A DNA stretch of 57,561 nt from Thermoanaerobaculia bacterium (lineage in GTDB: Bacteria; Acidobacteriota; Thermoanaerobaculia; Gp7-AA8), in NCBI GenBank assembly GCA_016650215.1, contig JAENWF010000033.1:1-57561 (forward strand). Direction: 5' to 3'. Below are positions 11,550-51,959 of the stretch, piece after piece. The first letter of the stretch is position 1. Every line of letters starts with the position of its first letter. The notes below the pieces were generated by a model. The model searched no databases. It was not told where the DNA came from and saw nothing but the letters and a program-made list of their open reading frames with translations. The position numbers and the translations under genes were made by a program.

Positions 11550-11630
11550 GAGGCTCCTTTTAGACAGGTGACGAGTAACAGTGACGCGGCAGGATAGCGT
11601 GAGGTTCTGTCGTCGTAAACTCCGCTTCGG

Positions 11631-12839
11631 ATGACCTACGACGTCGTGATTGCGGGCGCGGGAGCCGCGGGACTGATGGCGGCGATCTTCGCGGCGCGCG
11701 GCGGAGCGAAGGTGGCCGCTCTCGACGGAGCGCCGAGACTCGGCGCGAAAATTCTCATCGCCGGAGGGGGGCGCTGCAACGTCACGCACGACATCGTCCG
11801 CCCTGAAGACTTCAACGGCAGTCGCAATGCGATTGCGAAAGTTTTGCGGACATTCACCGTCGAGGAGACGATCCACTTCTTCGGAGACCTCGGCGTCGTT
11901 CTCAAACGCGAGGAAACGGGAAAGCTTTTTCCCGTGACTGATCGTGCGAGAACGGTCCTCGATGCACTGACGAATGCCGCGCGCGAGGCAGGGGCGGAGC
12001 TGTTCACGAACGCGCGCGTCGAGAGCGTGCGCGCAGGATTCGTCGTGGAGACCCCGTCGCGAACGCTCTCGGCCGCGAGGCTCATCCTCGCGACCGGCGG
12101 GCGAAGCGTGCCGAAGACCGGCAGCGACGGGCATGGTTACGAGCTTGTGCGCAGCCTCGGCCATACGGTCAGCGAGACCTTCCCCGCGCTGGTCCCGCTC
12201 GTCATCAGAGAAGAGCATTGGCTGAAGGAGCTGAGCGGAACTGCCGCAGAGGCGGAGATGATGGTGACGACCGCAACGGGGAGGGTCATCGCTCGCGACC
12301 GCGGCTCATTGCTCTTGACGCACTTTGGTTTGAGCGGACCGCTCGCGCTCGATCTGAGCCGGCACTGGATCGCCGCGCGCCGCGACGATCCGCAGTCGAA
12401 GCTGCTGCTGAACTTTCTTCCGGGCGTGCGATTCGAGCAGTGCGAGGAGATGCTGCTCGATGCGGCGGATTTGAATCCGCGGGCGACGATCGCGAGCGCG
12501 TTGCGCGGGCAGGTGCCCGAGCGCGTGCTGGCTCGCGTGTCGGAGTCAATTCCGATCGCGAAGATGACGCGCGAGGCTCGGCGCGAAGCGATTCGGATGC
12601 TGACTTCGCTCGAAGTCCCAGTGTCACGCGACCGCGGATTCGACTACGCCGAGGTGACGGCGGGCGGCGTGCCGCTCACCGAGATCGATCTTGCCAGCAT
12701 GGAGTCGCGAAAGTGCCCTGGGCTCTATCTCTGCGGCGAGATCCTCGACGTCGACGGAAAGATCGGCGGCTACAACTTTCAGTGGGCATGGGCGAGCGGG
12801 CGGCTCGCGGGGATGGCGGCGGCGGGGGTTAACTGTTAA
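11631..12839 (+). CDS. HI0933-like FAD-dependent oxidoreductase (aminoacetone-oxidase family flavoprotein)
   Basis: YDVVIAGAGAAGLMAA (GxGxxG), GGGRCNVTH and C-terminal GYNFQWAWASG are typical of this family. Confidence 0.88.
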   Translation: MTYDVVIAGAGAAGLMAAIFAARGGAKVAALDGAPRLGAKILIAGGGRCNVTHDIVRPEDFNGSRNAIAKVLRTFTVEETIHFFGDLGVVLKREETGKLFPVTDRARTVLDALTNAAREAGAELFTNARVESVRAGFVVETPSRTLSAARLILATGGRSVPKTGSDGHGYELVRSLGHTVSETFPALVPLVIREEHWLKELSGTAAEAEMMVTTATGRVIARDRGSLLLTHFGLSGPLALDLSRHWIAARRDDPQSKLLLNFLPGVRFEQCEEMLLDAADLNPRATIASALRGQVPERVLARVSESIPIAKMTREARREAIRMLTSLEVPVSRDRGFDYAEVTAGGVPLTEIDLASMESRKCPGLYLCGEILDVDGKIGGYNFQWAWASGRLAGMAAAGVNC

Positions 12840-12873
12840 CCGTTAGACCGTTGTACCGGTAGACCGCTCGACG
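12828..12873. repeat. short tandem array (2 x 7 nt then 4 x 8 nt) overlapping the oxidoreductase stop codon
   Basis: Units are GTTAACT GTTAACC GTTAGACC GTTGTACC GGTAGACC GCTCGACG. TAA at 12837-12839 lies in unit 2. Confidence 0.7.
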
Positions 12874-12886
12874 TTCTCGCGCCTTT

Positions 12887-12980
12887 GTCATCCTGAGCGC
12901 AAGCGAAGGATCCCCCGCGTCCGGGCGATGATCGTATCTGCGCTGGGGATCCTTCGCCGTCTTCCCGGGCTCAGGATGAC
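12887..12980. repeat. family-A palindromic element (94 bp), homologous to 32190..32281
   Basis: GTCATCCTGAGCGCAAGCGAAGGATCCCCCGCGTCCGGGCGATG...GGGGATCCTTCGCCGTCTTCCCGGGCTCAGGATGAC. The centre is nearly identical to the copy at 32190. Confidence 0.85.
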
Positions 12981-12997
12981 AAGGCCCTGGAATTTAC

Positions 12998-13026
12998 TTG
13001 ACCAGTCAACCATTGACAGGTACAGT
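12998..13026 (+). promoter_or_regulatory. candidate sigma-70-type promoter plus TTGAC-N2-GTCAA inverted repeat upstream of marR
   Basis: TTGACC (12998-13003), a 17-nt spacer, then TACAGT (13021-13026). TTGACCAGTCAA is a perfect inverted repeat. Caveat: the same stretch also reads as four degenerate heptamers (TTGACCA GTCAACC ATTGACA GGTACAG). Confidence 0.4.
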
Positions 13027-13035
13027 TTCGCCGCC

Positions 13036-13569
13036 GTGAGAAAGCCCGTGACCGACATCCAGCACGACATCAAACAAAGCAAGCCGTTCCGCTCGAAGGC
13101 GGAGGAGGCGGCAGTGTCGCTCATGCGGACAGCCGATCTCGTTCGCCGTTCGGTTGCGCGCGTCGTCGAGCCGCAGGGGATCACGACCCAGCAATACAAC
13201 GTCCTGCGGATTCTGCGCGGGGCGGGGGAGCGGGGGCTTCCCACGCTCGACATCGCCGAAAGGATGATCGAAGAGACTCCCGGCATCACACGGCTCATCG
13301 ACCGTCTCGAGGCAAAGAAGCTCGTCTCGCGCGAGCGCTGTCCGACCGATCGCCGTCAGGTGTTCTGCCGCATTACGACTGAAGGTCTCGCGCTGCTTGA
13401 CCGTCTCGACGAGCCTGTGCGGGACGCTGACGCGAACGCGCTGGCGACCCTTTCGAAGAAAGACCTCACGAGTCTCGTCGTGCTGCTCGACAAAACCCGT
13501 CATCTGCTCACCGCTTCGCTTACCGCGGAGCGGATCGATCTACGTACCATCAACAGGAGGAAGCCATGA
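13036..13569 (+). CDS. MarR-family transcriptional regulator
   Basis: Winged-HTH block QQYNVLRILRGAGERGLPTLDIAERMIEETPGITRLIDRLEAKKLVSRERCPTDRRQV. The start is uncertain: GTG 13036, GTG 13048, or ATG 12976, which lies inside the repeat element. Confidence 0.8.
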   Translation: MRKPVTDIQHDIKQSKPFRSKAEEAAVSLMRTADLVRRSVARVVEPQGITTQQYNVLRILRGAGERGLPTLDIAERMIEETPGITRLIDRLEAKKLVSRERCPTDRRQVFCRITTEGLALLDRLDEPVRDADANALATLSKKDLTSLVVLLDKTRHLLTASLTAERIDLRTINRRKP

Positions 13570-14156
13570 AGTCGTTCAGAAACATTGTTCTCGCCGCGGT
13601 TGTCGCGGCACTCCCGGTCATCGCCTCGGCGGAGACTTTCAACATCGATCCGGCGCACTCGGAGGCAAAGTTCCGCGTCAAGCACATGATGTCGAACGTG
13701 ACCGGCGGATTCTCGGAGGTTGCCGGCACCGTCGAAGTCGACCGAAAGAATCCTGCGGCCTCGTCGGTCGACTTTACGATCAAGACGTCGAGCGTCGATA
13801 CCAACAATGACAACCGCGACAAGCACCTTCGCAGCGCCGAGTTCTTCGACGCGGAGAAGTATCCTCAGATCACCTTCAAGAGCGCGAAGATCGCTCCCAC
13901 CAAGAGCAAGGACGTGTACAGCGTCACCGGCGACCTCACGATCCGCGGCGTCACCAAGCAGGTGACACTCCCGGTCGTCTTTCTCGGCTTCGGGAAAGAT
14001 CCGTGGGGCAACGAGCGCGCAGGATTCGAGATCGAGACCACGCTCAACCGCAAAGACTACGGCGTGAACTGGAACAAGGCGCTCGACCAGGGCGGCTTTC
14101 TGCTCGGCGACGATGTGAAAATCACGCTCGCGATCGAAGCAGTCGTGAAGAAGTGA
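13566..14156 (+). CDS. YceI-family periplasmic (polyisoprenoid-binding-like) protein
   Basis: Signal peptide MKSFRNIVLAAVVAALPVIASA. FNIDPAHSEAKFRVKHMMSNVTGGF and LTIRGVTKQVTLPV are YceI hallmarks. The ATG overlaps the marR TGA (ATGA). Confidence 0.9.
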   Translation: MKSFRNIVLAAVVAALPVIASAETFNIDPAHSEAKFRVKHMMSNVTGGFSEVAGTVEVDRKNPAASSVDFTIKTSSVDTNNDNRDKHLRSAEFFDAEKYPQITFKSAKIAPTKSKDVYSVTGDLTIRGVTKQVTLPVVFLGFGKDPWGNERAGFEIETTLNRKDYGVNWNKALDQGGFLLGDDVKITLAIEAVVKK

Positions 14157-14161
14157 TTTCA

Positions 14162-14193
14162 ATGAGGCGCCGCCCCGTCCGGCGGCGCCTCAT
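14162..14193. terminator. perfect 13-bp GC-rich hairpin between convergent genes
   Basis: ATGAGGCGCCGCC-CCGTCC-GGCGGCGCCTCAT. It sits 6 nt after the yceI stop and 6 nt before the peptidase stop. No clear U-tract. Confidence 0.6.
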
Positions 14194-14198
14194 CTCTA

Positions 14199-16376: not shown

Positions 16377-16395
16377 GCATGACGGAGGAACCCAA

Positions 16396-17175: not shown

Positions 17176-17370
17176 GGGCGCCGCCGCGGGTCGGCGGCAC
17201 CACACAGAACCGGCGCCACATCGCTCGCGAATGCTGCCACGAGCCATGCTGGATGTGGCGCCGGCTCTCAAGCCGGCGGTCTTCCGTCCTGCCGAGCTTA
17301 TTCACGTGCGAATGGCGCCACGAGCCATGCTCGACGTGGCGCCGGCTTCAGCCGGCGGTCTTTCGTCCTC
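17176..17370. repeat. family-B repeats (one inverted copy plus two direct copies)
   Basis: CCACGAGCCATGCTGGATGTGGCGCCGGCTCTCAAGCCGGCGGTCTTCCGTCC and GCCACGAGCCATGCTCGACGTGGCGCCGGCTTCAGCCGGCGGTCTTTCGTCCTC, plus a degenerate inverted copy at about 17176-17235. Confidence 0.8.
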
Positions 17371-17377
17371 TTTTGAG

Positions 17378-25540: not shown

Positions 25541-25560
25541 GCGGAGATGAGTTTGGCACA

Positions 25561-25706
25561 GGAGGACGAAAGGCCGCCGGCTGAAGCCGGCGCCACGTCG
25601 AGCATGGATGGTGGTGTTAGCCAGGCCGTGGAACATCAAGGCCTTGCTGATGACGGTATTCGCGCATGACGTAGCGCCGGCTTCAGCCGGTGGTTTTTCG
25701 TCCTCC
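25561..25706. repeat. family-B repeat, inverted pair
   Basis: GGAGGACGAAAGGCCGCCGGCTGAAGCCGGCGCCACGTCGAGCATGG (25561-25607) and its inverted partner CATGACGTAGCGCCGGCTTCAGCCGGTGGTTTTTCGTCCTCC (about 25665-25706). Confidence 0.85.
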
Positions 25707-27918: not shown

Positions 27919-27952
27919 GCTCGGGGACGGGTGCAAGGGGAGGGCCATTCGG

Positions 27953-28050
27953 GGCCGAGGGCCGAGGGAGGATCTGCGCGTCGCGTTTTGGGCACAACGT
28001 GTCCTGATCCGGTGCCTCACACTCGGCCCTTTGCTCTCAGCCCTCGGCCC
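27953..28050. repeat. inverted heptamer arrays (GGCCGAG type) flanking a spacer of about 50 bp
   Basis: Left units are GGCCGAG GGCCGAG GGAGGAT (27953-27973). Right units are CTCGGCC CTTTGCT CTCAGCC CTCGGCC (28023-28050), the reverse complement of the left unit. Confidence 0.75.
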
Positions 28051-28815: not shown

Positions 28816-28850
28816 CATTCAACACTCAATGTTGAACGTTGAATGTTGAA
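28816..28850. repeat. abutting inverted heptamers, AT-rich (CATTCAA/TTGAATG type)
   Basis: CATTCAA CACTCAA | TGTTGAA CGTTGAA TGTTGAA. CATTCAAC pairs with GTTGAATG, and TTCAACA pairs with TGTTGAA. Confidence 0.7.
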
Positions 28851-31026: not shown

Positions 31027-31104
31027 GGATACTCCGTTCGCAGGCTTGATCGGCGAAACGGGAGTTTGCGCTCCATAACGTCCGCGTTTTCAGCGTTCAA
31101 CAAG

Positions 31105-31140
31105 AGGGGCTTCGCATCTGCGAAGCCCCTTTTTCTTTTT
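31105..31140 (+). terminator. strong intrinsic terminator (12-bp stem plus T-tract) with no plus-strand gene to terminate
   Basis: AGGGGCTTCGCA-TC-TGCGAAGCCCCT followed by TTTTCTTTTT. Confidence 0.7.
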
Positions 31141-31257
31141 GCGGCGTCCCACCTTTGATCCCTCTCCCGTCGCATTCGACTTCGGCGTCTGTAGACTGTG
31201 CAGCCAGGTCAAGCTCGTGGGGCGATACGGCCTGTCGAGCGGATACAAGGAGAACTC

Positions 31258-32112
31258 GTGAACCTCGTCGTCGGATCGACTGGATTGCTGGGACGGATGA
31301 TCACCCTCGGTCTCCTCGAACGCGGGCTGCCCGTTCGATCACTGTTGCGCGGAGACGCTTCTATTGCGGGAGTCGAAAGCGTTCGCGGGGACTTGAAGGA
31401 TCCTTCCTCACTCGAGAAGGCGATGCATGGCATCACGACCGTCATCACGTCGGCCACCTCGGCGCAGCGCGGTGGCGACGACAATGTCAGCTCGGTCGAC
31501 GATGCCGGGAATCGCAGTCTCATCGACGCTGCGAAGCGGGCGGGCGTCAGCCGCTTCATCTTCATCTCCGCGGCCGCGGTCGATGAAGCCAGCCCGGTTC
31601 CGCTCTTCGCAGCGAAAGCGCGAGTCGAGAAGCACCTGCGCGACAGCGGGATGGAATGGACGATCGTCGCTCCTCACGCATTCATGGATGTCTGGTTTCC
31701 GCTGCTCATCGGCAGCGCGATCGGTTCAGGACAACCGGTTTCTCTCATCGGAGGGGGAAAGCGGCGGCATTCGTTCATTGCCGTCGAGGATGTCGCGCGG
31801 TTTGCGGTCGCGGCGGTCGGGAATCCGGCTGCCAGGAATCTGAGGATCGTGATCGGCGGTCCGGAGGCGCTCTCGTTTCAAGATGTCGTTCGCCAGAGCT
31901 CTGAGATTCTCCGTCGGGAAATACCCACGCGCGTGATCGAGCCAGGCGAGCCCATCCCGCATCTCCCCCCGCCTCTGAACCAGGTGATCGGCCAGCTCGC
32001 CGCCGGACTCGAACAGCAGGACGTCATTCTCGACACGCAAGCGACTGCCAGAACGTTCGGAATAACGTTGACGCCCGCCGCGACGGTGCTCCGGCGGATG
32101 TTCGCCGGCTGA
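31258..32112 (+). CDS. NmrA-like / atypical SDR NAD(P)-binding protein
   Basis: VNLVVGSTGLLGRMI (GxxGxxG), RFIFISAA, WTIVAPHAFMD. GTG at 31258 follows AAGGAG. Confidence 0.8.
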   Translation: MNLVVGSTGLLGRMITLGLLERGLPVRSLLRGDASIAGVESVRGDLKDPSSLEKAMHGITTVITSATSAQRGGDDNVSSVDDAGNRSLIDAAKRAGVSRFIFISAAAVDEASPVPLFAAKARVEKHLRDSGMEWTIVAPHAFMDVWFPLLIGSAIGSGQPVSLIGGGKRRHSFIAVEDVARFAVAAVGNPAARNLRIVIGGPEALSFQDVVRQSSEILRREIPTRVIEPGEPIPHLPPPLNQVIGQLAAGLEQQDVILDTQATARTFGITLTPAATVLRRMFAG

Positions 32113-32118
32113 TTACCC

Positions 32119-32167
32119 AGGACTGGGTGCTGAGTGCTGAGTGCTGAGGACTGAGGACTGAGTGAGT
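32119..32167. repeat. heptamer tandem array, left arm (AGGACTG / AGTGCTG units, 7 units)
   Basis: AGGACTG GGTGCTG AGTGCTG AGTGCTG AGGACTG AGGACTG AGTGAGT. Confidence 0.9.
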
Positions 32168-32189
32168 CCTCGTCGAGCCGGGCATTCAT

Positions 32190-32281
32190 GTCATCCCGAG
32201 CGAAGCGAGGGATCCCCCGCGTCCGGGCGATGTTCGCATTAGCGCGGGGGGTCCTTCGCCGTCTTCGCGGCTCAGGATGAC
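32190..32281. repeat. family-A palindromic element (92 bp), homologous to 12887..12980
   Basis: GTCATCCCGAGCGAAGCGAGGGATCCCCCGCGTCCGGGCGATGTTCGCATTAGCGCGGGGGGTCCTTCGCCGTCTTCGCGGCTCAGGATGAC. Confidence 0.88.
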
Positions 32282-32305
32282 AAGAGCCTTGGGCGATGCT
32301 TGACT

Positions 32306-32368
32306 CAGTCCTCAGCACTCAGTCCTCAGTCCTCAGCACTCAGCACTCAGCACTCAGTCCTCAGTCCT
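32306..32368. repeat. heptamer tandem array, right arm (CAGTCCT / CAGCACT units, 9 units), reverse complement of 32119..32167
   Basis: CAGTCCT CAGCACT CAGTCCT CAGTCCT CAGCACT CAGCACT CAGCACT CAGTCCT CAGTCCT. Units 3-8 are complementary to left units 1-6 (42 bp, 1 mismatch). Confidence 0.9.
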
Positions 32369-32426
32369 TAATCCCGCCACAACCTTTCCTCATTTGACGT
32401 CAAGCGCGCGTCATAGACTTGCTTTC

Positions 32427-38165: not shown

Positions 38166-40390
38166 ATCCTCGCGAACTCATTCGGACTCTGTGTGGCGCC
38201 GCCGTGATTCTCATCGCGGTCGCGGCCTGGATCCGACTCGGGCCGATCGCGCCGGAGGTGCTCGATCAGCGGCGATTCATCTCGTCGACGATCGTCGATC
38301 GGAATGGTGTCGTTCTGTACGAGCCGCTTTCGGCGAGCGGGGGCCGCGGTATCGCGCTGACATCAACGTCGTTGCCGCTGCGCGTGGTCGACGCGACGCT
38401 CGCGGCGGAGGATCGGCGCTTTTTTCGCCATCCCGGCGTCGATCCGATCGCGGTCGCGCGCGCAGCGTGGCACAACGTGAAGAACGCGGGCCTCGTCGAG
38501 GGAGGCTCGACACTGTCGCAGCAGACCGCAAAGCTGCTGCTCGGCTCGCGCGATCGCGGCGTCGCGACGAAGGTCCGCGAGACGTTGCTGGCACTGAGGA
38601 TCGAGCATCGATTCAGCAAGCGCGAGATCCTCGCGATGTATCTGAATCTCGCGCCATACGGCAACCGGATTCACGGCATCTCGCGCGCAAGCCGAGTCTA
38701 CTTTGGCTGCGCGCCGGAAGATCTGACGCACGCGCAGGCGGCGTTTCTTGCGTCACTGCCGCAGAGACCCGGCGCGTTCAACCCGCTGCGCGATGCGACG
38801 CGCGCGGTGCCGAGGCAGCGATACGTGCTCTCGCGGATGAAGATGCCGGCGAATGAGCGCGCACAGGCGCTGCGCGAGCGTCTCGAGCTCTCGGGCGGCG
38901 GCGAGCCGCTCGTCGCCCAGCATTTCGTCGAGAGGGTGCTCGAGCGGAGCAACACGCCCGTCATCAGGACGACGCTCGACGTCGGGTTGCAGCGCGAAGT
39001 TCTCGGCATCATCGCCGCGCAGCGGCAAAGACTCATCGCTCACGGCGCGACGAGCGTCGCAGTGGCTGTGCTCGACAACCGCACGGGCGACTGGCTCGCG
39101 TGGGAAGGTTCGGGCGATTACTTCGGCGACGGCTTCGGCGGCGCGATCGATGCGGTCGTGACGCCGCGTCAGCCCGGCTCGACGCTCAAGCCCTTCACGT
39201 ACGCGCTCGCATTCGAGAGGGGATACTCGCCGGCGACGGTGCTCCCCGATGTTGTCTCGAATTTTCCGACCGCGGAGGAAGGCGTCGTCTATTCGCCGCG
39301 CAACTACGATGGCCGCTATCGCGGGCCGCTGCGCGTGCGAAGCGCGCTCGCCGGATCGCAGAACGTGCCGGCAGTCGCCATGCTCGCGCAGCTCGGCACG
39401 CCGTCGCTCCATCGCCTTCTCCGCAACGCCGGCTTCACAAACCTCACGAAGACCGCCGACTACTACGGCCTCGGCCTCACCCTCGGCGACGCCGAGGTAA
39501 GACTCGACCAGTTGATCGCTGCCTACGCAGCGTTCGCGCGCGGAGGACGCCCGATCACGCCGCGGTTTCGATTCGATGACCCTCGACCCTCGACTCTCGA
39601 CCCTCGACCCTTGTTTTCCAAAACGACCTCCTTCTGGATCGCCGACATCCTCTCCGACCGTGCCGCGCGCGAGTACGCCTTCGGCAGCGGCGGCAGTCTC
39701 GACTTTCCGTTCCGCGTCGCGGTCAAGACCGGAACCTCGCAGGCGTATCGCGACAACTGGACGATCGGCTTTACGCGCGACGTCACCGTCGGCGTCTGGG
39801 TAGGAAACTTCGATCGAGAAGAGCTGCGCAACTCGACAGGCGTGACCGGCGCAGCGCCAATCTTCAACGCGGTCATGCTCGCGGCAGTGAAGCGCGTGCG
39901 CGGCTCGTTGCCGATCGGCGACGAAGAGCCGATCGTCGCTCCGCCGGATGATCTCGAGGAGGTTGCGATCTGCGCGTTGTCCGGCCTCCGGCCTTCGACG
40001 TTCTGCGAGTCGACGGAGCGCGAGTGGGCGCGAAAGGATGCGCCGGCCGAATTCTGCTCGTGGCATCACGATGAGTATGTCGACTGGCCGCCTGAATATC
40101 GCGCGTGGGCTCGCGCAGCGTTGCCACCCGCGCCGCAACCGCGGCGCCCGCCCGCGCAAAGAATGGCTGCTCTGCGCGTCGTCAATCCGCCGGACGGCGC
40201 GACGTATCTAATCGATCCGACCCTGCGCAGCGGATTTCAGACGCTGAAGTTCCGCGCGACCGCGAGTGCGCGATGGGAAATCAACGGCCGCGCCGTCCCC
40301 TCGTCATGGCCGCTCCAACGCGGCAAACACACGATCGCCGCCGTCGATGGGCGCGGGAATCGGGACGAGGTCGAGATTTACGTAAAGTAG
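38162..40390 (+). CDS. pbpC: penicillin-binding protein 1C (bifunctional glycosyltransferase/transpeptidase)
   Basis: GT51 motifs EDRRFFRHPGVD and GGSTLSQQ. Transpeptidase motifs STLK, SQN and KTGTS. PBP1C-type C-terminal domain. GTG at 38162 overlaps the A2M TGA (GTGA). Confidence 0.9.
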   Translation: MNPRELIRTLCGAAVILIAVAAWIRLGPIAPEVLDQRRFISSTIVDRNGVVLYEPLSASGGRGIALTSTSLPLRVVDATLAAEDRRFFRHPGVDPIAVARAAWHNVKNAGLVEGGSTLSQQTAKLLLGSRDRGVATKVRETLLALRIEHRFSKREILAMYLNLAPYGNRIHGISRASRVYFGCAPEDLTHAQAAFLASLPQRPGAFNPLRDATRAVPRQRYVLSRMKMPANERAQALRERLELSGGGEPLVAQHFVERVLERSNTPVIRTTLDVGLQREVLGIIAAQRQRLIAHGATSVAVAVLDNRTGDWLAWEGSGDYFGDGFGGAIDAVVTPRQPGSTLKPFTYALAFERGYSPATVLPDVVSNFPTAEEGVVYSPRNYDGRYRGPLRVRSALAGSQNVPAVAMLAQLGTPSLHRLLRNAGFTNLTKTADYYGLGLTLGDAEVRLDQLIAAYAAFARGGRPITPRFRFDDPRPSTLDPRPLFSKTTSFWIADILSDRAAREYAFGSGGSLDFPFRVAVKTGTSQAYRDNWTIGFTRDVTVGVWVGNFDREELRNSTGVTGAAPIFNAVMLAAVKRVRGSLPIGDEEPIVAPPDDLEEVAICALSGLRPSTFCESTEREWARKDAPAEFCSWHHDEYVDWPPEYRAWARAALPPAPQPRRPPAQRMAALRVVNPPDGATYLIDPTLRSGFQTLKFRATASARWEINGRAVPSSWPLQRGKHTIAAVDGRGNRDEVEIYVK
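39578..39612 (+). repeat. 5-unit heptamer tandem array inside the pbpC CDS
   Basis: GACCCTC GACCCTC GACTCTC GACCCTC GACCCTT, which encodes DDPRPSTLDPRPL. Confidence 0.9.
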
Positions 40391-40511: not shown

Positions 40512-40898
40512 CTACACCTTCCGCACTGGTCCGCCGTAACGGGCCAGTTGTGCGTCCGCCGTGAGCAGAGTGATCCCCTCGACGAGGGCCTGCGCGAGCA
40601 GCATGCGGTCGAATGGGTCTCTATGCAGCGGAGGCAAGGTGTCGGTGCTCACGGCGTGCTGGCTGGTGATCGGCAGCTCGGTGTAACCGTTGTCGAGCAG
40701 TCCTCGGCGCAGCAGGCGAGGCTCGACGCGGAAGTCGTCGCGCCCGAGACCATTCTTGATGGCGATCTCCCAGATGCTCGCAGCGCTGAAGAGGAGCTCG
40801 TTGCCGGGATTGTCGAGCTGCTTTCGCGCCGGGGCGGAGAGCCGCTCGGGCTGACCGGCCGCCCAGAGCAGAATCTGCGTGTCGAGCAGCAGCTTCAC
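40512..40898 (-). CDS. vapC: type II toxin, PIN-domain VapC
   Basis: MKLLLDTQILLW...ASIWEIAIK...DPFDRMLLAQA has the PIN acidic residues in the usual spacing. It overlaps the upstream antitoxin gene by 4 nt. Confidence 0.88.
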   Translation of the reverse strand: MKLLLDTQILLWAAGQPERLSAPARKQLDNPGNELLFSAASIWEIAIKNGLGRDDFRVEPRLLRRGLLDNGYTELPITSQHAVSTDTLPPLHRDPFDRMLLAQALVEGITLLTADAQLARYGGPVRKV

Positions 40899-41134
40899 GC
40901 CCGAGCCCCAAACAGCGCTTCGATCTCGCTCTCGCCCATCCGATCAAAGTCTTTCGGAACTGCGATCTCTCCGGCCATAAAGCCGAGGCGTTGCGGCGAA
41001 GAAGGCGCATCGAGCGCCGCTACTCTAACCAGCGGCTTCCCGGCTTTCGCAATGACGAACGACTCGCCCTTCGCAGCCTGATCGACCAGCTTGGAGAGCT
41101 GCGTCTTGGCTTCGTGGATGTTGACTGTAACCAA
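40895..41134 (-). CDS. type II antitoxin, Phd/YefM-type
   Basis: VTVNIHEAKTQLSKLVDQAAKGESFVIAKAGKPLVRV. No ATG is available. TTG at 41134 has GGAG 6 nt upstream, and the ORF-track TTG at 41146 has none. Confidence 0.8.
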   Translation of the reverse strand: MVTVNIHEAKTQLSKLVDQAAKGESFVIAKAGKPLVRVAALDAPSSPQRLGFMAGEIAVPKDFDRMGESEIEALFGARA

Positions 41135-44219: not shown

Positions 44220-44705
44220 GTGGTCGCGAGCCTGCTGATCGGCGCAGGATTCCTCTTCCTGTCGCGCGGAGCGGCAGGGCGGGCCATGCGGCTCGCGTGC
44301 GCGTTCCTGCTCCTCATCGCCGGTGCCGCGTTCGCGCTTCCTCGCGGAGAGTCGGCGGTCACCTGGCAGAAGTACGACACGAAGACGCTCGCCGCCGCTT
44401 CAGCGGCGGGGAAGCCGGTCGTGATCGACTTCTTCGCCGACTGGTGTCTGCCGTGCAAGGAGCTCGACGCGAAGACGTTCGGAGACCAGCGCGTCGCCAG
44501 AGAGATGGATCGCTTCGTACGGGTGAAGGCCGATCTCACGCTCGCTGACGATCCCGCTACGCTGGCGCTGTCGAAGCAGTACGGAATCATCGGAGTCCCC
44601 GCGGTCGTCTTTCTCGACGCGAAAGGCGAGGAACTGCGAGAGCTGCGCCTCAATCAATTCGAGTCCGCGGATCCGTTCCTCGCGAGACTCAAACAGGCGC
44701 GCTAA
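44220..44705 (+). CDS. two TM helices plus a thioredoxin domain (equivalent to DsbD TM7-8 and the gamma domain)
   Basis: VVASLLIGAGFLFL, LACAFLLLIAGAAFAL, then KPVVIDFFADWCLPCKELD (CxxC). GTG at 44220 is 6 nt after the TAG, in the same frame. Confidence 0.75.
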   Translation: MVASLLIGAGFLFLSRGAAGRAMRLACAFLLLIAGAAFALPRGESAVTWQKYDTKTLAAASAAGKPVVIDFFADWCLPCKELDAKTFGDQRVAREMDRFVRVKADLTLADDPATLALSKQYGIIGVPAVVFLDAKGEELRELRLNQFESADPFLARLKQAR

Positions 44706-44945
44706 TCCTGAGCCGCGAAGACGGCGAAGGATCTTCTGATGTAAGGACGATGCACGTGGCTGCGTCCCTCCCAGCGCTATCAGAAGATCCTTCGCTTCGC
44801 TCAGGATGACAGGACGATGCACGTGGCTGCGTCCCTCCCAGCGCTATCAGAAGATCCTTCGCTTCGCTCAGGATGACGGGACGATGCACGTGGCTGCGTC
44901 CCTCCCAGCGCTATCAGTAGATCCTTCGCTTCGCTCAGGATGCGG
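44706..44945. repeat. family-A long form: one inverted half plus 3 tandem copies of a 67-bp unit
   Basis: The unit GGACGATGCACGTGGCTGCGTCCCTCCCAGCGCTATCAGAAGATCCTTCGCTTCGCTCAGGATGACA occurs at 44745, 44812 and 44879, with 0-4 differences between copies. Confidence 0.92.
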
Positions 44946-45748: not shown

Positions 45749-46051
45749 ATGACGTTGACACCGAAACAGCGGCAGTACCTGAGAGGCCTCGCGCACCCCT
45801 TTGAACCCGTCGTCCGCGTCGGAAAGGGTGGCGTCAGCCCCAGTGTCATCGCTGAGACGAAAAAGGCGCTGGACTCACACGAGCTGATCAAGATCCGTGT
45901 CGAAGGCGAGGAGCGGAAGACCCTTGTCGAAAAACTCGCGGCTGAGACCGCCTCGGAAATCGCGGGGATCGTCGGAAAGACAGCGATCCTCTATCGGGCG
46001 CGCGAAGATGATCCGGAGATCGAGTTGCCAGAAGCCTCTACCCGATCCTGA
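45749..46051 (+). CDS. yhbY: YhbY/CRS1-type RNA-binding ribosome assembly protein
   Basis: LTPKQRQYLRGLAHPFEPVVRVGKGGVSPSVIAETKKALDSHELIKIRV. The stop codon lies inside a family-A repeat. Confidence 0.85.
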   Translation: MTLTPKQRQYLRGLAHPFEPVVRVGKGGVSPSVIAETKKALDSHELIKIRVEGEERKTLVEKLAAETASEIAGIVGKTAILYRAREDDPEIELPEASTRS

Positions 46052-46106
46052 GCGAAGCGAAGGATCTTCTGATCGCGCCTGGGAGGACGCAGCCACAGCG
46101 GCCGTG
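46044..46106. repeat. family-A long-form copy (inverted orientation) filling a convergent intergenic gap
   Basis: GATCCTGAGCGAAGCGAAGGATCTTCTGATCGCGCCTGGGAGGACGCAGCCACAGCGGCCGTG is the reverse complement of the 67-bp unit at 44745. Confidence 0.85.
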
Positions 46107-47104: not shown

Positions 47105-47182
47105 CCTCCCAGCGCACCGCGCGACGATCAGGCTTTGCCGCGACGCCAGACTTCCTCCTTCCTTCGCTTCGCTCAGGATGAC
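47105..47182. repeat. family-A related copy
   Basis: CCTCCCAGCGC...GATCAG...CCTTCGCTTCGCTCAGGATGAC. Its CCTCCC, read on the minus strand, is the GGGAGG RBS of the PHP gene. Confidence 0.7.
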
Positions 47183-47192
47183 GAGGGCGACA

Positions 47193-48513: not shown

Positions 48514-48547
48514 CTCGCATCTTCAATTCCCGGAGGCAGTTCCCTAT

Positions 48548-49261
48548 ATGGACCGGCAGCATCGCAGAGACCTGAAACACGACAAATTCGTCGACGAAGT
48601 CGGCATCCTGACGGACAAGGCGCGCGCCAACCAGCGCGTGCTGATCCTGATTGCGGTGGCAGCGATTGCCATCGCCGCGCTCAGCTACGGCTGGTTCTTC
48701 TACCGCGGCAACCAGGAGACAAAGGCGCAGGAGGTGCTGGCGAGCGCGATCGACACGATCGAGTCGCCGCTGATCGATGCAACTGCCACCGCGCCGAATC
48801 CCGCCGCGAAGTTCAAGACCGCGGCCGAGCGGACCGCCGCCGCCGAGAAGCAGTTCAAGGATGTCGAGACGAAGTACTCAGGCAGCGATGCGGCCGATGT
48901 CGCAGGACTCTACGTCGCGCGCATCCACGCCGGCCGCGGCGATGTCGCGACGGCACGGAAGAAACTCGAGGCGTTCATCGGCGAGCATTCCGATCATCTG
49001 CTCGTCGGCGGCGCCCGCTACAGCCTCTATCAGATGAGGATCGACGGCGGCGAGGCACAGAAGGTCGCGACCGAGATCAACGCGGAGCTCGCGAAGACGA
49101 ACGACACGGTTCTCCCGGCCGACTCTCTGCTCGTTCTTCTCGCGCACGCCTACGAAGTGCAGGGCGATAGCGTGAAGTCGCGCGAGACCTACCGCAGGAT
49201 CACGACCGAGTATCCCGACTCGCCGTTCGTCCTCGAGGCGCAGCGTCGCGTTGGAGCGTAA
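48548..49261 (+). CDS. membrane-anchored TPR-like protein (YfgM-like architecture)
   Basis: MDRQHRRDLKHDKFVDEV, then one TM segment (VLILIAVAAIAIAALSYGWFF), then a helical TPR-like domain. Confidence 0.65.
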   Translation: MDRQHRRDLKHDKFVDEVGILTDKARANQRVLILIAVAAIAIAALSYGWFFYRGNQETKAQEVLASAIDTIESPLIDATATAPNPAAKFKTAAERTAAAEKQFKDVETKYSGSDAADVAGLYVARIHAGRGDVATARKKLEAFIGEHSDHLLVGGARYSLYQMRIDGGEAQKVATEINAELAKTNDTVLPADSLLVLLAHAYEVQGDSVKSRETYRRITTEYPDSPFVLEAQRRVGA

Positions 49262-49270
49262 TCGACGAAG

Positions 49271-49319
49271 GTGACGAGTGACGCGTTACGCGTGACGAGT
49301 CCTGAGTGGTGAGTCTCTC
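49271..49319. repeat. heptamer tandem array (GTGACGA type) running into the GT2 start codon
   Basis: GTGACGA GTGACGC GTTACGC GTGACGA GTCCTGA GTGGTGA GTCTCTC. The GTG start at 49306 is the first triplet of unit 6. Confidence 0.85.
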
Positions 49320-50436
49320 ACTCGTCGTCCTCGTCGCGTGGGTCGTTGCTTTCGTTCAGACGCTTCTCAATCTCTTTCTGATCCGTTCGTTGCGCGGTGC
49401 CGCCTCCGTCGAGGGTCCGCGCGTGTCGGTCATCGTCCCTGCGCGCAATGAAGAGCGATCGATTGCGCGGACCGTTCGTGCGCTACTGGCCCAGACATAT
49501 CGCGACCTCGAAATCATCGTCGTCGACGACCGGTCGAGCGACTCGACGGGACCTCTGCTGCAAGAAATCGCTCTCGGGGATCCGCGCCTCATCGTGATCT
49601 CCGGTGAAGAGCCGCCGGCAGGGTGGCTCGGCAAGCCGTGGGCGCTGCATCAGGGGAGTCTGCGTGCGAGCGGCGACCTGCTGCTGTTCGTCGATGCCGA
49701 CATCCACTACCAGCCCGCGGGTATTGCGGCGGCGGTTGCAGAGTTGCAGCAATGTAAAGCGGAGATGCTCACGCTCTTTCCTCACGTCGAAATGCGCGGA
49801 TTCTGGGAGAACGTGGCGATGCCGCAGCTCTCGGTGGTCGTCTTTACGTTTCTGCCGACGTTCCTCTCCAACCGCACGATGAATCCGCGTATGGCTCTCG
49901 GCGGGGGCACCGGGAATCTCGTGCGGCGCGACGCCTACGACAAAGCAGGCGGGCATGAGGCGCTCCGAAGCGCCGTTGTGGATGACATCGGCCTCGCACG
50001 TCTATTCCGCAGCCGTGGTTTCCGCACGCAAACCGTGCTGGCCGGCGATTTTGTATCCGTCCGCATGTACGAAGGGGGACGCCAGATCGTCGAGGGGTTC
50101 ACCAAGAACCTCTTCGCGGCATTGGGCCGGAGTTACGTGCTGACGATCACTCTCGCGATTCTCGGCGTACTCTTCCACGTCTGGCCCTACCTGGCCGCGA
50201 TCCTCGGCGATCCACTAGCGGTCGCGACTGTCACGCTCATCACGCTGTCGCGCCTGTTGGTTTTCGCGAGGTTGCGGTACAGCCTCGTGGCGGCGCTCTT
50301 CGCGCACCCGCTGATGGTGCTCGTGTTCACCTGGATCTCGCTCCGGTCGATGTGGCTCACAGGCGTGAAGCGTCAGCTCACGTGGCGCGGCCGCGTGTAC
50401 GACGCGTCCCATACGCGCTTCGGCGGGGAGCGGTGA
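49306..50436 (+). CDS. membrane glycosyltransferase family 2 (HpnB/CrtQ-like, non-processive type)
   Basis: VSVIVPARNEERSI, VVDDRSSDST, GKPWAL, FVDADI, GGGTGNLVRRDAYDKAGG, VVDDIGLA. C-terminal TM helices. Confidence 0.82.
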   Translation: MVSLSLVVLVAWVVAFVQTLLNLFLIRSLRGAASVEGPRVSVIVPARNEERSIARTVRALLAQTYRDLEIIVVDDRSSDSTGPLLQEIALGDPRLIVISGEEPPAGWLGKPWALHQGSLRASGDLLLFVDADIHYQPAGIAAAVAELQQCKAEMLTLFPHVEMRGFWENVAMPQLSVVVFTFLPTFLSNRTMNPRMALGGGTGNLVRRDAYDKAGGHEALRSAVVDDIGLARLFRSRGFRTQTVLAGDFVSVRMYEGGRQIVEGFTKNLFAALGRSYVLTITLAILGVLFHVWPYLAAILGDPLAVATVTLITLSRLLVFARLRYSLVAALFAHPLMVLVFTWISLRSMWLTGVKRQLTWRGRVYDASHTRFGGER

Positions 50437-50462
50437 TACTTTATCGCCGCTAAGGAGAACCA

Positions 50463-51032
50463 ATGACCGACAAACCTTTCCTCACTGACGTTGCAGAGCT
50501 GCGCCGCCGCGCGCGCAAACACATCGAGGACGGCGCAGTGACCGACGGCTACCGCGGCGACCGCGAGACCGTGATCAAACTTCTGAACGAGGCGCTGGCG
50601 ACTGAGATCGTCTGTGTCCTTCGCTACAAACGTCACTACTTCATGGCGCAGGGCATCCACGCCGATCCGATCGCGCAGGAGTTCCTGCAGCACGCGAACG
50701 AAGAGCAGGGCCATGCCGACGAGCTCGCAGGGCGCATCGTCCAGCTCGGCGGATCGCCGAACTTCAGCCCCGAGGGGTTGCTGAGCCGCTCGCACTCCGA
50801 ATATGTGGAAGGGCTGACGCTGCTCGACATGATTCGCGAGGATCTCGTCGCCGAGCGCGTCGCGATCGACTCGTACACCGAGATGATCCGCTACGTCGGA
50901 GATAACGACATCACGACACGCCGGATGCTCGAAGGAATTCTCGCGGTCGAAGAGGAGCACGCGGACGATCTCGCGAGCTTTCTCGCGGACCTCGACAAGG
51001 ATTGGAAAACCAGAGATCGCACAGCGGGCTGA
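50463..51032 (+). CDS. bacterioferritin-like / ferritin-like four-helix-bundle protein
   Basis: LNEALATEIVCVLRY, EEQGHADELAGRI, ERVAIDSY and EEEHADDL are the di-iron ExxH pairs. Confidence 0.8.
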   Translation: MTDKPFLTDVAELRRRARKHIEDGAVTDGYRGDRETVIKLLNEALATEIVCVLRYKRHYFMAQGIHADPIAQEFLQHANEEQGHADELAGRIVQLGGSPNFSPEGLLSRSHSEYVEGLTLLDMIREDLVAERVAIDSYTEMIRYVGDNDITTRRMLEGILAVEEEHADDLASFLADLDKDWKTRDRTAG

Positions 51033-51090
51033 GGGTCCCGGGACGCTCTCGGAAATATGGTAGATTCTTGAGGGTTGTAGCGCCCTGCCT

Positions 51091-51858
51091 ATGTCACGTC
51101 CAGCCGAGCGTCACGCACAGATCCTCGACGAGCTCATCGCCCCCTTCGACCTCAGCCACGACTTTGGCCGGAAGGCGGCTTACGAGGCGGCGATCGACTA
51201 CGCGCGTCAAAATCTGATCGACGACCCGCACTGCAACGATTTCCTCGGGGCCGCCGCGAAACGCCTCGGCTTCGCCGCCGTGAATTTCGACACGCTCGAG
51301 AGCCGCGTCAAAATGCCCAAGAACGCGTGGCTCGACCTCTGGATCTCCGACGAGGATGAAGAGGTCTCGCTCACCGGCACGCGCGAGGGCATTCAGTATC
51401 TGATCGACCTGCTCTCGCAGCTCCGCGACGTAGGCGATCCCGAGCAGCACATCCATCTCGACCGCGGTCTTCTGCCGATGACGGAGAACTCGGCGAACCT
51501 CGTGCTCTTCAAGGAAGAGGAGAACTGGTTCACCGGCGCCGCCACCGAGGGCGTGCTGGACTTTCCGCGGCGCGAGATCGACCCCAAGTCGATCTACGCG
51601 ATCCAGTTCATCCACTATCCGCCGGAGGATCTCCCGATCAGCGCGCACAAGTTGTACCGGGTGCTGAAGGTGGAGGAAGAGAGTGGGACGCCGGCGAGCG
51701 TCAAGGAATTCGGCGACGGCGGTGACGGCCGCTACTACCGCTTCACGTTCGTCGCTGACAATGACGACAAGTTCACCTACAGCTTCCATCTCGACGATCC
51801 CGCGGTGAACTACTTCACGCATCGAGAGATTCTCAAGCTCGCGATGAGAAGCGTCTAA
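51091..51858 (+). CDS. hypothetical protein (255 aa)
   Basis: Clean ORF with typical codon usage. The central block EVSLTGTREGIQYLIDLLSQLRDVGDPEQHIHLD loosely recalls Imm32-type immunity proteins. That is unverified. Confidence 0.6.
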   Translation: MSRPAERHAQILDELIAPFDLSHDFGRKAAYEAAIDYARQNLIDDPHCNDFLGAAAKRLGFAAVNFDTLESRVKMPKNAWLDLWISDEDEEVSLTGTREGIQYLIDLLSQLRDVGDPEQHIHLDRGLLPMTENSANLVLFKEEENWFTGAATEGVLDFPRREIDPKSIYAIQFIHYPPEDLPISAHKLYRVLKVEEESGTPASVKEFGDGGDGRYYRFTFVADNDDKFTYSFHLDDPAVNYFTHREILKLAMRSV

Positions 51859-51865
51859 TTGAGGG

Positions 51866-51959
51866 AGTGACGCGTGACGAGCATTGGCCGATGACCTGCT
51901 CGAACCGAATCACAGATCTCGACTTGTAACTCGTCACTCGTAACGCGTCACTCGATACG
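51866..51959. repeat. inverted heptamer arrays (GTGACG type) around a 38-nt spacer
   Basis: Left units AGTGACG CGTGACG AGCATTG (51866-51886). Right units TGTAACT CGTCACT CGTAACG CGTCACT CGATACG (51925-51959). Confidence 0.8.

What the first reader, a model, noticed from the sequence alone, without database searches (positions are those of the whole stretch)
11568..51959. Window-wide pattern: same short-tandem-repeat architecture at eight loci, unit sequence differing between most loci
Short tandem arrays occur at the following sites.
- 11568-11587: GTGACGA type, degenerate.
- 12828-12873, with a possible partner at 12998-13025.
- 27953-27973 with 28023-28050: GGCCGAG.
- 28816-28850: CATTCAA.
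- 32119-32167 with 32306-32368: AGGACTG/AGTGCTG.
- 39578-39612: GACCCTC, inside a CDS.
- 49271-49319: GTGACGA.
- 51866-51886 with 51925-51959: GTGACG.
The period is 7 nt in nearly all, and four or five loci are inverted pairs. A conserved architecture with non-conserved sequence argues for a generating process (slippage at hairpin-prone sites, or an enzyme acting on structure rather than sequence). It argues against spread of a single repeat family. Arrays lie at gene ends, starts or divergent promoter regions.
Basis: partly seen in the sequence, partly recalled or inferred. Interest (0 to 1): 0.75.

Follow-up and report, generated by a model that had tools for sequence, protein, structure and literature searches.

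The report
Heptamer-repeat hairpins in an acidobacterial genome
The short 7-base tandem repeats are real and form part of a lineage-wide habit of soil Acidobacteriota, whose intergenic DNA is peppered with hairpins built from heptamer repeats that grow and shrink by slippage, a little-described relative of the heptamer repeats known in Xanthomonas and cyanobacteria.

Summary
Period-7 arrays are far commoner in the window than in shuffles or at other periods. Six of the eight listed sites are solid. 49271 is a real array with a weak partner, and 11568 is near chance.

The window comes from an uncultured Acidobacteriota genome, close to Thermoanaerobaculia. In about 1.7 Mb from roughly 130 related contigs, period 7 dominates every other non-coding period. 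Arrays are about 33-fold enriched in intergenic DNA, and about two thirds have an inverted partner 10-45 nt away, forming long stem-loops.

Three results point to slippage with concerted evolution:
- Two 98.5%-identical strains differ by exactly two units.
- Orthologous sites carry graded unit variants with complementary changes in both arms.
- Arrays also sit in frame in variable loops of PbpC.

Sites within one genome share units and variant order.

Array density is equal in tandem, convergent and divergent spacers, and most hairpins lack U-tracts. They are therefore not ordinary terminators.

The closest known cases are the Xanthomonas GGGAATC inverted heptamer repeats, cyanobacterial STRRs and REPINs. 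I rate this a new variant of a known kind. The sharp preference for 7 nt remains unexplained.

The parts
11568..11587 (.). Degenerate GTGACGA-like stretch (GTGACGA GTAACA GTGACGC) in the 81-nt divergent spacer between 9120-11549(-) and 11631-12839(+). Weak and near chance level.
   Evidence: Not reported by TRF. No hairpin, z +0.4. It matches the GTGACGAGTGACG family only with 2 mismatches.
12828..12873 (+). Left array of 7/8-nt units (GTTAACT GTTAACC GTTAGACC GTTGTACC GGTAGACC). It overlaps the TAA stop (12837-12839) of the HI0933-like gene.
   Evidence: TRF period 7 and period 8 rows, sequence, gene assignments.
12886..12982 (.). Palindromic MITE-like element (TGTCATCCTGAGCG...GCTCAGGATGACA) lying between the array and its weak partner. 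It is not part of the heptamer system itself.
   Evidence: Repeat family D9/I-series. It dominates the fold of this region.
12998..13025 (+). Weak, degenerate inverted partner (TTGACCAGTCAACCATTGACAGGTACAG) of the 12828 array.
   Evidence: Sequence. Only partial pairing in the MFE structure.
27952..27973 (+). Left arm, (GGGCCGA)2.4, in the divergent spacer between the LEA_2 gene (-, start about 27918) and the GT2 gene.
   Evidence: Hairpin z -4.3.
28021..28050 (+). Right arm: CTCGGCC CTTTGCT CTCAGCC CTCGGCC CT. It ends 7 nt upstream of the conserved GT2 start ATGGTCTGCCGG (28058).
   Evidence: (D5).
28816..28850 (+). Compact hairpin CATTCAACACTCAA / TGTTGAACGTTGAATGTTGAA. It fills the 54-nt spacer between the GT2 stop (28808) and the DUF2071 start (28863).
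   Evidence: Fold z -3.9. Identical in an independent assembly, L081.
32119..32167 (+). Left arm: AGGACTG GGTGCTG AGTGCTG AGTGCTG AGGACTG AGGACTG AGTG. It begins 7 nt after the NmrA-like gene stop (32110-32112).
   Evidence: (I7: 46 nt, 98% complementary).
32186..32282 (.). A MITE-like palindromic element of the same family as 12886-12982, inserted in the loop of the heptamer hairpin.
   Evidence: D9, 88% identical to the 12901 copy. The orthologous hairpin in L021 has the same unit and a 4-9 nt loop without the element.
32304..32368 (+). Right arm, 9.3 units of CTCAGTC/CTCAGCA. It lies upstream of the conserved GCCACAA promoter-region motif and of the alpha-2-macroglobulin gene start (32427).
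39578..39611 (+). Unpaired (GACCCTC)4.9 array in frame inside the PbpC gene (38204-40390). It encodes ...DDPRPSTLDPRPL... in a length-variable loop between the conserved ARGG and RTAFWI(T/A)DILSD motifs.
49271..49300 (+). Array GTGACGA GTGACGC GTTACGC GTGACGA G, starting 10 nt after the stop (49261) of a TPR/YfiO-like gene.
   Evidence: The 13-mer GTGACGCGTTACG is shared with 51939(-).
49317..49337 (+). Partial inverted partner (CTCACTCGTCGTCCTCGTCGC) overlapping the start of the next ORF (49306-50436).
   Evidence: MFE pairing of 49290-49299 with 49327-49337, overall z -1.3.
51866..51882 (+). Left arm, AGTGACGCGTGACGAG, 8 nt after the stop (51858) of the upstream gene.
51922..51959 (+). Right arm: CTTGTAA CTCGTCA CTCGTAA CGCGTCA CTCGATA. 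It lies 25 nt upstream of the 3-hydroxyacyl-CoA dehydrogenase start (51984).
   Evidence: TRF period 7 and period 14 rows..

Best explanation
The arrays are heptanucleotide simple-sequence repeats. In this lineage of Acidobacteriota (Thermoanaerobaculia and neighbouring classes) they populate intergenic DNA at roughly one site per 15-20 kb. Usually they form the two complementary arms of a long stem-loop, which I call a heptamer-repeat hairpin.

**How they behave.**
- Shown: units are gained and lost in 7-nt steps, and new unit variants are homogenised along an array (concerted evolution).
- Shown: the two arms stay complementary, with the order of unit variants mirrored.
- Inferred: the arms are kept complementary either by intra-hairpin template switching (quasi-palindrome correction) or by selection for the stem.
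- Shown: hairpins with the same unit and variant order occur at several spacers of one genome.
- Inferred: these copies spread by copy-and-paste or by inter-locus gene conversion, much as REPINs do.
- Shown: arrays settle wherever they are tolerated. That means just after stop codons, just before start codons, in divergent spacers, and in frame in variable surface loops of PbpC.

**Function (inferred).** I read them as largely self-propagating structural DNA. Side effects on the mRNA, such as 3' end stabilisation, intercistronic processing or 5' UTR tuning, are plausible. They are not dedicated terminators.

**The 7-nt period (unexplained).** It is most simply a property of replication or repair: 7 nt may be the shortest slipped loop that escapes correction, with slippage rates falling as units get longer.
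For: **The period-7 excess.**
- Window: 6 arrays against 0.2 in shuffles.
- 80 related genome loci: 119 arrays at period 7 against 6-12 at periods 4, 5, 10, 11 and 13.
- An independent set of 57 metagenome loci: 37 against 0-6.
- Runs of at least 3 perfect copies in 160 kb of spacers: 6, 1, 3, 46, 12 and 1 for unit lengths 4 to 9.
- E. coli control: 0.

**Location and pairing.**
- 92 of 124 arrays lie in the 8% of sequence called intergenic.
- 59 of those 92 have an inverted partner, mostly 10-45 nt away, against 15 with a direct partner.
- I resolved 42 stems of at least 14 net pairs.

**Slippage and concerted evolution.**
- L091 and L103, 98.5% identical, differ by exactly 14 nt at the array.
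- In PbpC, (CCGGCAA)n, (ACCGCCA)n and (ACGGACA)n occupy the same loop in different genomes.
- One orthologous spacer in 21 loci runs from no array, to a single array, to inverted pairs. Its right-arm units are CTCAGTC, CTCAGGA, CTCGGCA and CTCGGCC, each matched by its complement in the left arm.

**Dispersal within genomes.**
- Same-genome sites share units in 29% of pairs against 5.8% between genomes, p<0.0005.
- Three spacers in L001 share GGTGTCG-GGTGTCA-GGTGTCT-GGGG.
- The window 13-mer GTGACGCGTTACG occurs at 49278(+) and 51939(-), with 0.24 matches expected.
- A complete 78-nt hairpin sits in frame in PbpC of L004 only.

**Not terminator-specific.**
- Density is equal in tandem, convergent and divergent spacers: 0.60, 0.54 and 0.52 per kb.
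- Only 5 of 31 stems are followed by a T-tract, and the scan tool does not flag them.
Against: - Gene calls in the related loci come from my own crude codon-usage caller. The classes of spacer, and therefore the claim of equal density in divergent spacers, carry error.
- Only one strain pair with a unit-number difference was found. Other near-identical pairs (99.5-100%) had identical arrays, probably because they are the same population.
- There is a weak signal for RNA-level constraint. In co-directional spacers, mismatches compatible with G.U on the sense strand number 31 against 16 compatible with A.C.
- T-tracts are about 3-fold enriched after stems. Some hairpins may therefore be functional at the RNA level.
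- Nothing here explains why 7 nt is so sharply preferred over 6. No mechanism of dispersal was identified.
- No whole genome was scanned.
Confidence: 0.62

Rival explanations
1. They are a class of non-autonomous mobile elements, REPIN- or MITE-like hairpins. A dedicated structure-recognising enzyme, such as a RAYT/IS200-type single-strand transposase encoded elsewhere in the genome, moves them. Slippage only decorates the arms afterwards.
For: - Units and variant order are shared within genomes.
- A whole hairpin is inserted in frame in PbpC of one genome only.
- The architecture of two inverted arms with a short spacer matches REPINs.
- The motif CCAGGCGA occurs in 10 of 40 loops against 2.1 expected.
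- Site density is mildly over-dispersed among genomes, p=0.01.
Against: - There are 80-89 distinct units among 115-124 arrays.
- Loops are otherwise unrelated, and no target-site duplications are visible.
- No transposase is encoded in the window.
- Orthologous sites show gradual change in place, including single-arm states.
- The loop motif is marginal after multiple testing and comes mostly from related genomes.
Confidence: 0.2
2. They are selected RNA elements: unconventional transcription terminators, or mRNA 3' end or intercistronic stabiliser hairpins. REP sequences within about 15 nt of stop codons act this way in E. coli. On this view the heptamer repetition is merely the easiest way to lengthen a stem.
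For: - In co-directional spacers the hairpin starts a median of 12 nt after the stop codon.
- The stems are very stable.
- Complementarity is preserved while units change.
- There is a G.U bias on the sense strand, 31 against 16.
- T-tracts are about 3-fold enriched after stems.
Against: - Density is the same in divergent spacers, where nothing needs terminating.
- 84% of stems lack a U-tract, while the genome has canonical terminators such as 31102-31142.
- Many arrays are unpaired, and some lie inside a CDS.
- Arm lengths are often unequal.
- Selection for a stem does not explain a 7-nt period.
Confidence: 0.12
3. They are contingency or tuning loci. Copy-number change of the heptamer array next to start codons, in promoters or in the PbpC CDS switches or tunes expression, and selection keeps the arrays for that purpose.
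For: - The L091/L103 difference of two units lies 5-10 nt upstream of the GT2 start codon.
- Eight of 33 arrays in tandem spacers end within 12 nt of the next start.
- Arrays occur in frame in PbpC.
Against: - The arrays are spread over housekeeping genes of every kind and over every spacer class.
- Most are paired hairpins downstream of genes.
- The PbpC arrays are short (3-5 units), and no frameshifted alleles were seen among 80 homologues.
Confidence: 0.05
4. They are chance, compositional or assembly artefacts.
For: The weakest listed sites (11568, and the 12998 partner) are at chance level.
Against: - The excess over shuffles and over other periods is very large.
- The same array appears in an independent assembly.
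- Contigs whose record names differ in style (k141_, NODE_ and contig_ prefixes, presumably different assemblers) all carry arrays.
Confidence: 0.01

Closest known systems
Xanthomonas GGGAATC-type heptameric SSRs (Rehm et al. 2015, PMC4692102)
   Same: - Both are tandem 7-nt units strongly over-represented in intergenic DNA of a high-GC genome.
- A large fraction (70-75 of about 185) occur as two nearby arrays on opposite strands that can form stem-loops.
[quoted passage not shown] The single or paired state is usually preserved.
   Different: - Xanthomonas has essentially one G-rich unit family (GGGNATC) able to form G-quadruplexes.
- Here there are 80-89 different units, mostly not G-tract-containing.
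- Here several families coexist in one genome, and arrays also occur in frame in a CDS.
General over-representation of heptanucleotide SSRs in prokaryotes (Mrazek et al. 2007, as summarised in PMC4692102) and cyanobacterial STRR heptamers (Calothrix/Nostoc)
   Same: - In both, period 7 stands out among long SSRs.
- Both are intergenic, with several different unit sequences per genome in cyanobacteria.
- Polymerase slippage is the suggested origin.
   Different: - These were described for other phyla. The held literature contains no report for Acidobacteria.
- In Nostoc, few arrays are paired. Here two thirds are.
REPINs / REP elements (Bertels & Rainey 2011, PMC3116915; details from my own knowledge)
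   Same: - Both are two inverted arms separated by a short spacer, forming a hairpin.
- Both are dispersed in spacers close to gene ends.
- Both form genome-specific sequence families.
   Different: - REP arms are unique 20-25-nt sequences, conserved across hundreds of copies, and are tied to a RAYT transposase.
- Here the arms are tandem heptamers of variable number and many sequences.
- No RAYT link could be tested.
TAACTGA heptamer direct repeats of Beggiatoaceae, cyanobacteria and Bacteroidetes (MacGregor 2015, PMC4679880)
   Same: Both are tandem heptamers in spacers. The TAACTGA repeats often end a few nucleotides upstream of start codons, as at window 28021-28050 and its orthologues.
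   Different: - TAACTGA is a single conserved unit, almost always in direct orientation (169 direct sets against one inverted).
- Here the units are diverse and inverted pairs dominate.

Membership tests
Heptanucleotide simple-sequence repeats (long SSRs) | Head-to-tail copies of a 7-nt unit, at least 2-3 copies | tested here: met
   TRF and lag-match scans. Up to 9.3 copies in the window and up to about 44 in L049.
Heptanucleotide simple-sequence repeats (long SSRs) | Excess over chance and over neighbouring periods | tested here: met
   E. coli control.
Heptanucleotide simple-sequence repeats (long SSRs) | Copy number changes in whole units between close relatives (slippage) | tested here: met
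   L091 against L103: a 14-nt difference at 98.5% overall identity. This is a single pair, and no close relative of the window itself was available.
Xanthomonas-type G-quadruplex heptamer repeats | GGGNATC-like unit with G-tracts able to form G4 | tested here: not met
   Window units are GTGACGA, CTGAGTG, GGCCGAG, GTTGAAC and GACCCTC. There are 80-89 distinct units overall.
Xanthomonas-type G-quadruplex heptamer repeats | Frequent pairing of two arrays on opposite strands within one spacer | tested here: met
   59 of 92 intergenic arrays have an inverted partner.
REP / REPIN | Two inverted arms plus a short spacer forming a hairpin, dispersed in spacers | tested here: met
REP / REPIN | One conserved arm sequence shared by most copies in a genome | tested here: inconclusive
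   Units are shared within genomes 5-fold above background and variant order is shared. However, 3-4 families coexist in 57 kb, and only about 20-kb samples of other genomes were available.
REP / REPIN | Cognate RAYT (Y1 transposase) gene flanked by the repeats | not testable with these tools
   None among the window's 49 genes. Whole genomes could not be fetched.
Intrinsic (Rho-independent) terminator | GC-rich stem followed directly by a U-tract | tested here: not met
   5 of 31 stems have at least 5 T in 8 nt. The scan tool flags 31102-31142 but none of the heptamer hairpins.
Intrinsic (Rho-independent) terminator | Located downstream of transcription units and depleted between divergent genes | tested here: not met
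   Densities are 0.60, 0.54 and 0.52 per kb in tandem, convergent and divergent spacers (based on crude gene calls).
MITE | Terminal inverted repeats, a conserved internal sequence and a target-site duplication | tested here: not met
   Loops are unrelated apart from a marginal 8-mer. No duplications are seen at the flanks.
Known structured RNA families (Rfam 15) | Match at the gathering score | tested here: not met
   0 matches in the whole window.

The most novel reading that the evidence does not exclude
The hairpins are built and spread by an uncharacterised process that works as a molecular ruler. It could be a structure-specific enzyme, or a property of the replisome or repair system, that adds or copies DNA in 7-nt steps at hairpins. 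The same process would underlie the unexplained heptamer repeats of Xanthomonas and cyanobacteria. In these Acidobacteriota it would yield a new class of self-expanding, REPIN-like mobile hairpins that can even insert into genes.
Probability: 0.15. Interest if true: 0.8.

Novelty: new variant of a known kind. Interest (0 to 1): 0.55.

Why it matters
- Heptamer SSRs were noted as over-represented in bacteria in 2007. According to Rehm et al. 2015, no detailed literature on them existed by then, and my searches of the held library found nothing later for Acidobacteria.
- This lineage offers an unusually rich natural experiment. The density seen here (about 0.6 sites per 10 kb) would extrapolate to a few hundred sites in a genome of several megabases. 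Many unit sequences coexist, single and paired states occur at orthologous sites, and some copies lie in frame.
- That variety could show what sets the 7-nt period, and how palindromes are kept symmetrical.
- On the practical side, the arrays create very stable hairpins next to stop and start codons. They can remodel protein loops, as in PbpC.
- They are also likely break-points for short-read assemblies of abundant soil Acidobacteriota.

Tried and rejected
- **Rfam and tRNA scans.** Rfam at gathering score found nothing, and the tRNA scan found nothing.
- **Strain-level relatives of the window.** An exact-protein look-up gave only an identical 1.4-kb contig or nothing. The metagenome scan reached only 72% amino-acid identity. 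Unit-number polymorphism therefore had to be shown in another species pair.
- **First greedy gene caller.** It mis-called antisense ORFs, so I replaced it with a dynamic-programming caller.
- **Stop codons as the reason for the repeats.** TGA/TCA is 2.3-fold enriched in units, but only 34 of 80 units carry any stop. I dropped this as a general explanation.
- **Strand-composition asymmetry of the arms.** None was found.
- **A conserved loop motif.** I found only a marginal CCAGGCGA signal.
- **Target-site duplications.** None were seen around the hairpins or around the GTCATCC element.
- **Synteny upstream of the A2M gene.** It is not conserved, with 0 hits for the NmrA-like gene. So most arrays upstream of A2M in other genomes cannot be called orthologous to the window's.
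- **Mrazek 2007.** The paper could not be read, so its content is cited only through Rehm et al. 2015.

Full report

Tandem Repeats Finder reports period-7 arrays at seven of the eight listed sites. A simple lag-match scan at score >=10 finds 6 period-7 arrays in the window, against 0.2 in dinucleotide-preserving shuffles. Other periods that are not multiples of three give 0-1. A 50-kb stretch of E. coli K-12 run through the same scan gives none.

The strongest case is 32119-32164 with 32316-32361. Its arms are 46 nt and 98% complementary, and the order of the two unit variants (AGGACTG and AGTGCTG) is mirrored. The region folds at -187 kcal/mol, z -15.7.

- Hairpins are also clear at 27952-28050 (z -4.3) and 28816-28850 (z -3.9).
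- The arms at 51866-51959 pair across a long loop.
- 49271-49300 is a real array with only a partial partner.
- 12828-12873 is real, with mixed 7- and 8-nt units, but its proposed partner is weak.
- 39578-39611 is an unpaired array inside a CDS.
- 11568-11587 is at chance level.

**2. Where the window comes from, and its gene context**

The PbpC homologue at 38204-40390 has its best matches (66-68% amino-acid identity) in soil metagenome-assembled genomes labelled Thermoanaerobaculia or Acidobacteriota. GC content is 63%. All 49 called genes are ordinary chromosomal genes, with no transposase, reverse transcriptase or RAYT among them.

The arrays sit in these positions:
- overlapping or just after stop codons (12828, 28816, 32119, 49271, 51866);
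- in divergent spacers (11568, 27952-28050);
- in the PbpC CDS (39578).

The right arm at 28021-28050 ends 7 nt before the conserved start ATGGTCTGCCGG of a GT2 gene.

**3. The pattern is lineage-wide**

In 80 related genome loci (1.28 Mb), 119 arrays have period 7. Periods 4, 5, 10, 11 and 13 give 6-12. Using a codon-usage gene caller of my own, 92 of 124 period-7 arrays lie in the 8% of sequence called intergenic, an enrichment of about 33-fold.

An independent set of 57 metagenome loci (445 kb), fetched with a different gene, repeats the result: 37 arrays at period 7 against 0-6.

Counting only runs of at least three perfect copies in 160 kb of spacers gives 6, 1, 3, 46, 12 and 1 for unit lengths 4 to 9, against about 0 expected above length 4. 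The preference therefore sets in abruptly at 7 and decays through 8 and 9.

Density is about 0.6 sites per 10 kb, with mild heterogeneity among genomes. Contigs with k141_, NODE_ and contig_ style names, which I take to come from different assemblers, all carry arrays. An independent assembly reproduces the 28816-28850 hairpin exactly.

**4. Architecture**

Fifty-nine of 92 intergenic arrays have an inverted partner, mostly 10-45 nt away. Only 15 have a direct partner. I resolved 42 stems of at least 14 net Watson-Crick pairs, with loops of 4-151 nt.

Loops are not conserved, apart from a marginal CCAGGCGA signal in 10 of 40 loops against 2.1 expected, mostly from related genomes. Arm lengths are often unequal.

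In the window, two hairpins carry an unrelated palindromic element (GTCATCCTGAGCG...) between the arms. The L021 hairpin upstream of the A2M gene has the same AGTGCTG unit and a very short loop without that element, so the element is a secondary insertion.

**5. How the arrays evolve**

(a) *Slippage.* Two contigs that are 98.5% identical differ at their array by exactly 14 nt, or two units.

(b) *Concerted evolution.* A variable loop of PbpC lies between the conserved ARGG and RTAFWITDILSD motifs. In it, (CCGGCAA)n encodes P-A-T-G-N-R-Q in two genomes. The orthologous arrays are homogenised to (ACCGCCA)n and (ACGGACA)n in others. The window has (GACCCTC)n at the same place.

(c) *A graded series.* One orthologous spacer lies between a LEA_2 gene and the GT2 start. 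Across 21 loci it shows no array, a single copy, a single array of 3-6 units, or an inverted pair. The right-arm units are CTCAGTC, CTCAGGA, CTCGGCA and CTCGGCC, each matched by its exact complement in the left arm. Much of the apparent non-conservation is therefore divergence in place, with compensatory change in both arms.

(d) *Relatedness of sites within a genome.* Pairs of distinct sites in one locus share a unit (at most one difference) in 29% of cases, against 5.8% between loci, permutation p<0.0005. Three spacers of L001 share the variant order GGTGTCG-GGTGTCA-GGTGTCT-GGGG. In the window, the 13-mer GTGACGCGTTACG occurs at 49278(+) and 51939(-), with 0.24 matches expected.

(e) *A whole hairpin in a gene.* A complete 78-nt hairpin lies in frame in the PbpC linker of L004, where all other homologues have nothing.

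**6. Function**

Array density per kb is the same in tandem, convergent and divergent spacers: 0.60, 0.54 and 0.52. Only 5 of 31 stems downstream of genes are followed by a T-tract. The consensus scan flags a canonical terminator at 31102-31142 but none of the heptamer hairpins. They are therefore not ordinary intrinsic terminators.

Some hints of RNA-level constraint remain:
- In co-directional spacers the hairpin starts a median of 12 nt after the stop codon.
- Stem mismatches compatible with G.U on the sense strand outnumber those compatible with A.C by 31 to 16.
- T-tracts are about 3-fold enriched after stems.

From my own knowledge, E. coli REP hairpins close to stop codons stabilise upstream mRNA and can lower translation of the upstream gene. 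Similar side effects are plausible here but untested.

**7. Best explanation and rivals**

I conclude that these are heptanucleotide SSRs that form and maintain palindromic hairpins. I read them as REP-like structural, largely selfish DNA. They grow and shrink by slippage and are homogenised within and between arms. Copies are related across sites by dispersal or gene conversion.

The rivals are an enzyme-mobilised element, a selected RNA element, tuning loci, and artefact. They are weighed in the structured fields above.

The sharp onset at 7 nt is unexplained. Rehm et al. 2015 relay the suggestion of Mrazek et al. 2007 that it reflects the DNA segment held at the polymerase active site. My alternative inference is that 7 nt is the shortest slipped loop that escapes correction.

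**8. Comparison with what is known, and novelty**

The nearest described case is the Xanthomonas GGGAATC heptamer repeats. They are intergenic, 70-75 of about 185 occur as inverted pairs, and both position and single/paired state are conserved between species while length varies. Cyanobacterial STRRs and the TAACTGA repeats are further relatives. REPINs share the inverted-doublet architecture.

This system differs in four ways:
- the units are very diverse;
- several families coexist in one genome;
- copies occur in frame in a CDS;
- the host phylum is different, and the held literature contains no report for it.

I class it as a new variant of a known kind, of moderate interest.

Noticed in passing
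window 8984-9115, 12886-12982, 32186-32282, 44705-44942, 46034-46096, 47160-47185, 52841-52882: A dispersed palindromic MITE-like family with ends TGTCATCCTGAGCGAAGCGAAGGATC...GGATGACA. One site holds three tandem 67-nt copies (44744-44942). Two copies sit in loops of heptamer hairpins. Related copies occur in L009, L078 and L079. No target-site duplication is visible.
   Followed up: partly
window 17210-17375, 25557-25706, 57423-57524: A second repeat family containing the hairpin GCCGGCTTCAGCCGGC followed by GGTCTTTCGTCC. It lies at gene ends in both orientations, sometimes doubled. It looks like a REP- or terminator-like element.
   Followed up: no
window 32370-32426; L001, L002, L008, L010, L021, L052, L057 upstream of the A2M gene: A conserved GCCACAAT(C) motif, sometimes duplicated, and a TACACTGCAC box lie upstream of the alpha-2-macroglobulin/PbpC operon across many genomes. 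These are probably a promoter or regulator site. The heptamer hairpin lies just upstream of them.
   Followed up: no
L004 10754-10833; L060 and L075 PbpC loop: A complete heptamer hairpin (both arms and the loop, 78 nt) is translated in frame as a 26-aa insertion in the PbpC linker of L004. L060 and L075 carry 60-80-aa insertions in the other PbpC loop that contain heptamer arrays, two detected in L060 and one in L075.
   Followed up: partly
L049 7166-7477; L042 14029-14181; L027 1015-1142: Some heptamer arrays are very long: about 44 copies of GTAAGAA (interrupted by an assembly gap of Ns), 22 copies of CCTCTCG, and 18 copies of GAGTGAA.
   Followed up: no
hairpin loops in L001, L010, L014, L015, L019, L038, L039: Loops of hairpins with different heptamer units share a CCAGGCGA / TCGCCTGG-like motif in either orientation, in 10 of 40 loops against 2.1 expected. 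This is marginal after multiple testing, and the genomes are related.
   Followed up: partly
window 31102-31142: A canonical intrinsic-terminator-like hairpin with A- and T-tracts (AAGAGGGGCTTCGCATCTGCGAAGCCCCTTTTTCTTTTT). It shows that the genome also uses ordinary terminators.
   Followed up: no
window 40512-41134: A PIN-domain toxin and Phd/YefM antitoxin pair lies directly downstream of PbpC on the opposite strand.
   Followed up: no
L001 about 4000-4190; L063 about 3900-4150: Another palindromic repeat (TTTGGAGTGCGG..GCCGCAGC..CCGCACTCCAAA) occupies the spacer upstream of the A2M gene in some genomes, in place of a heptamer hairpin.
   Followed up: no
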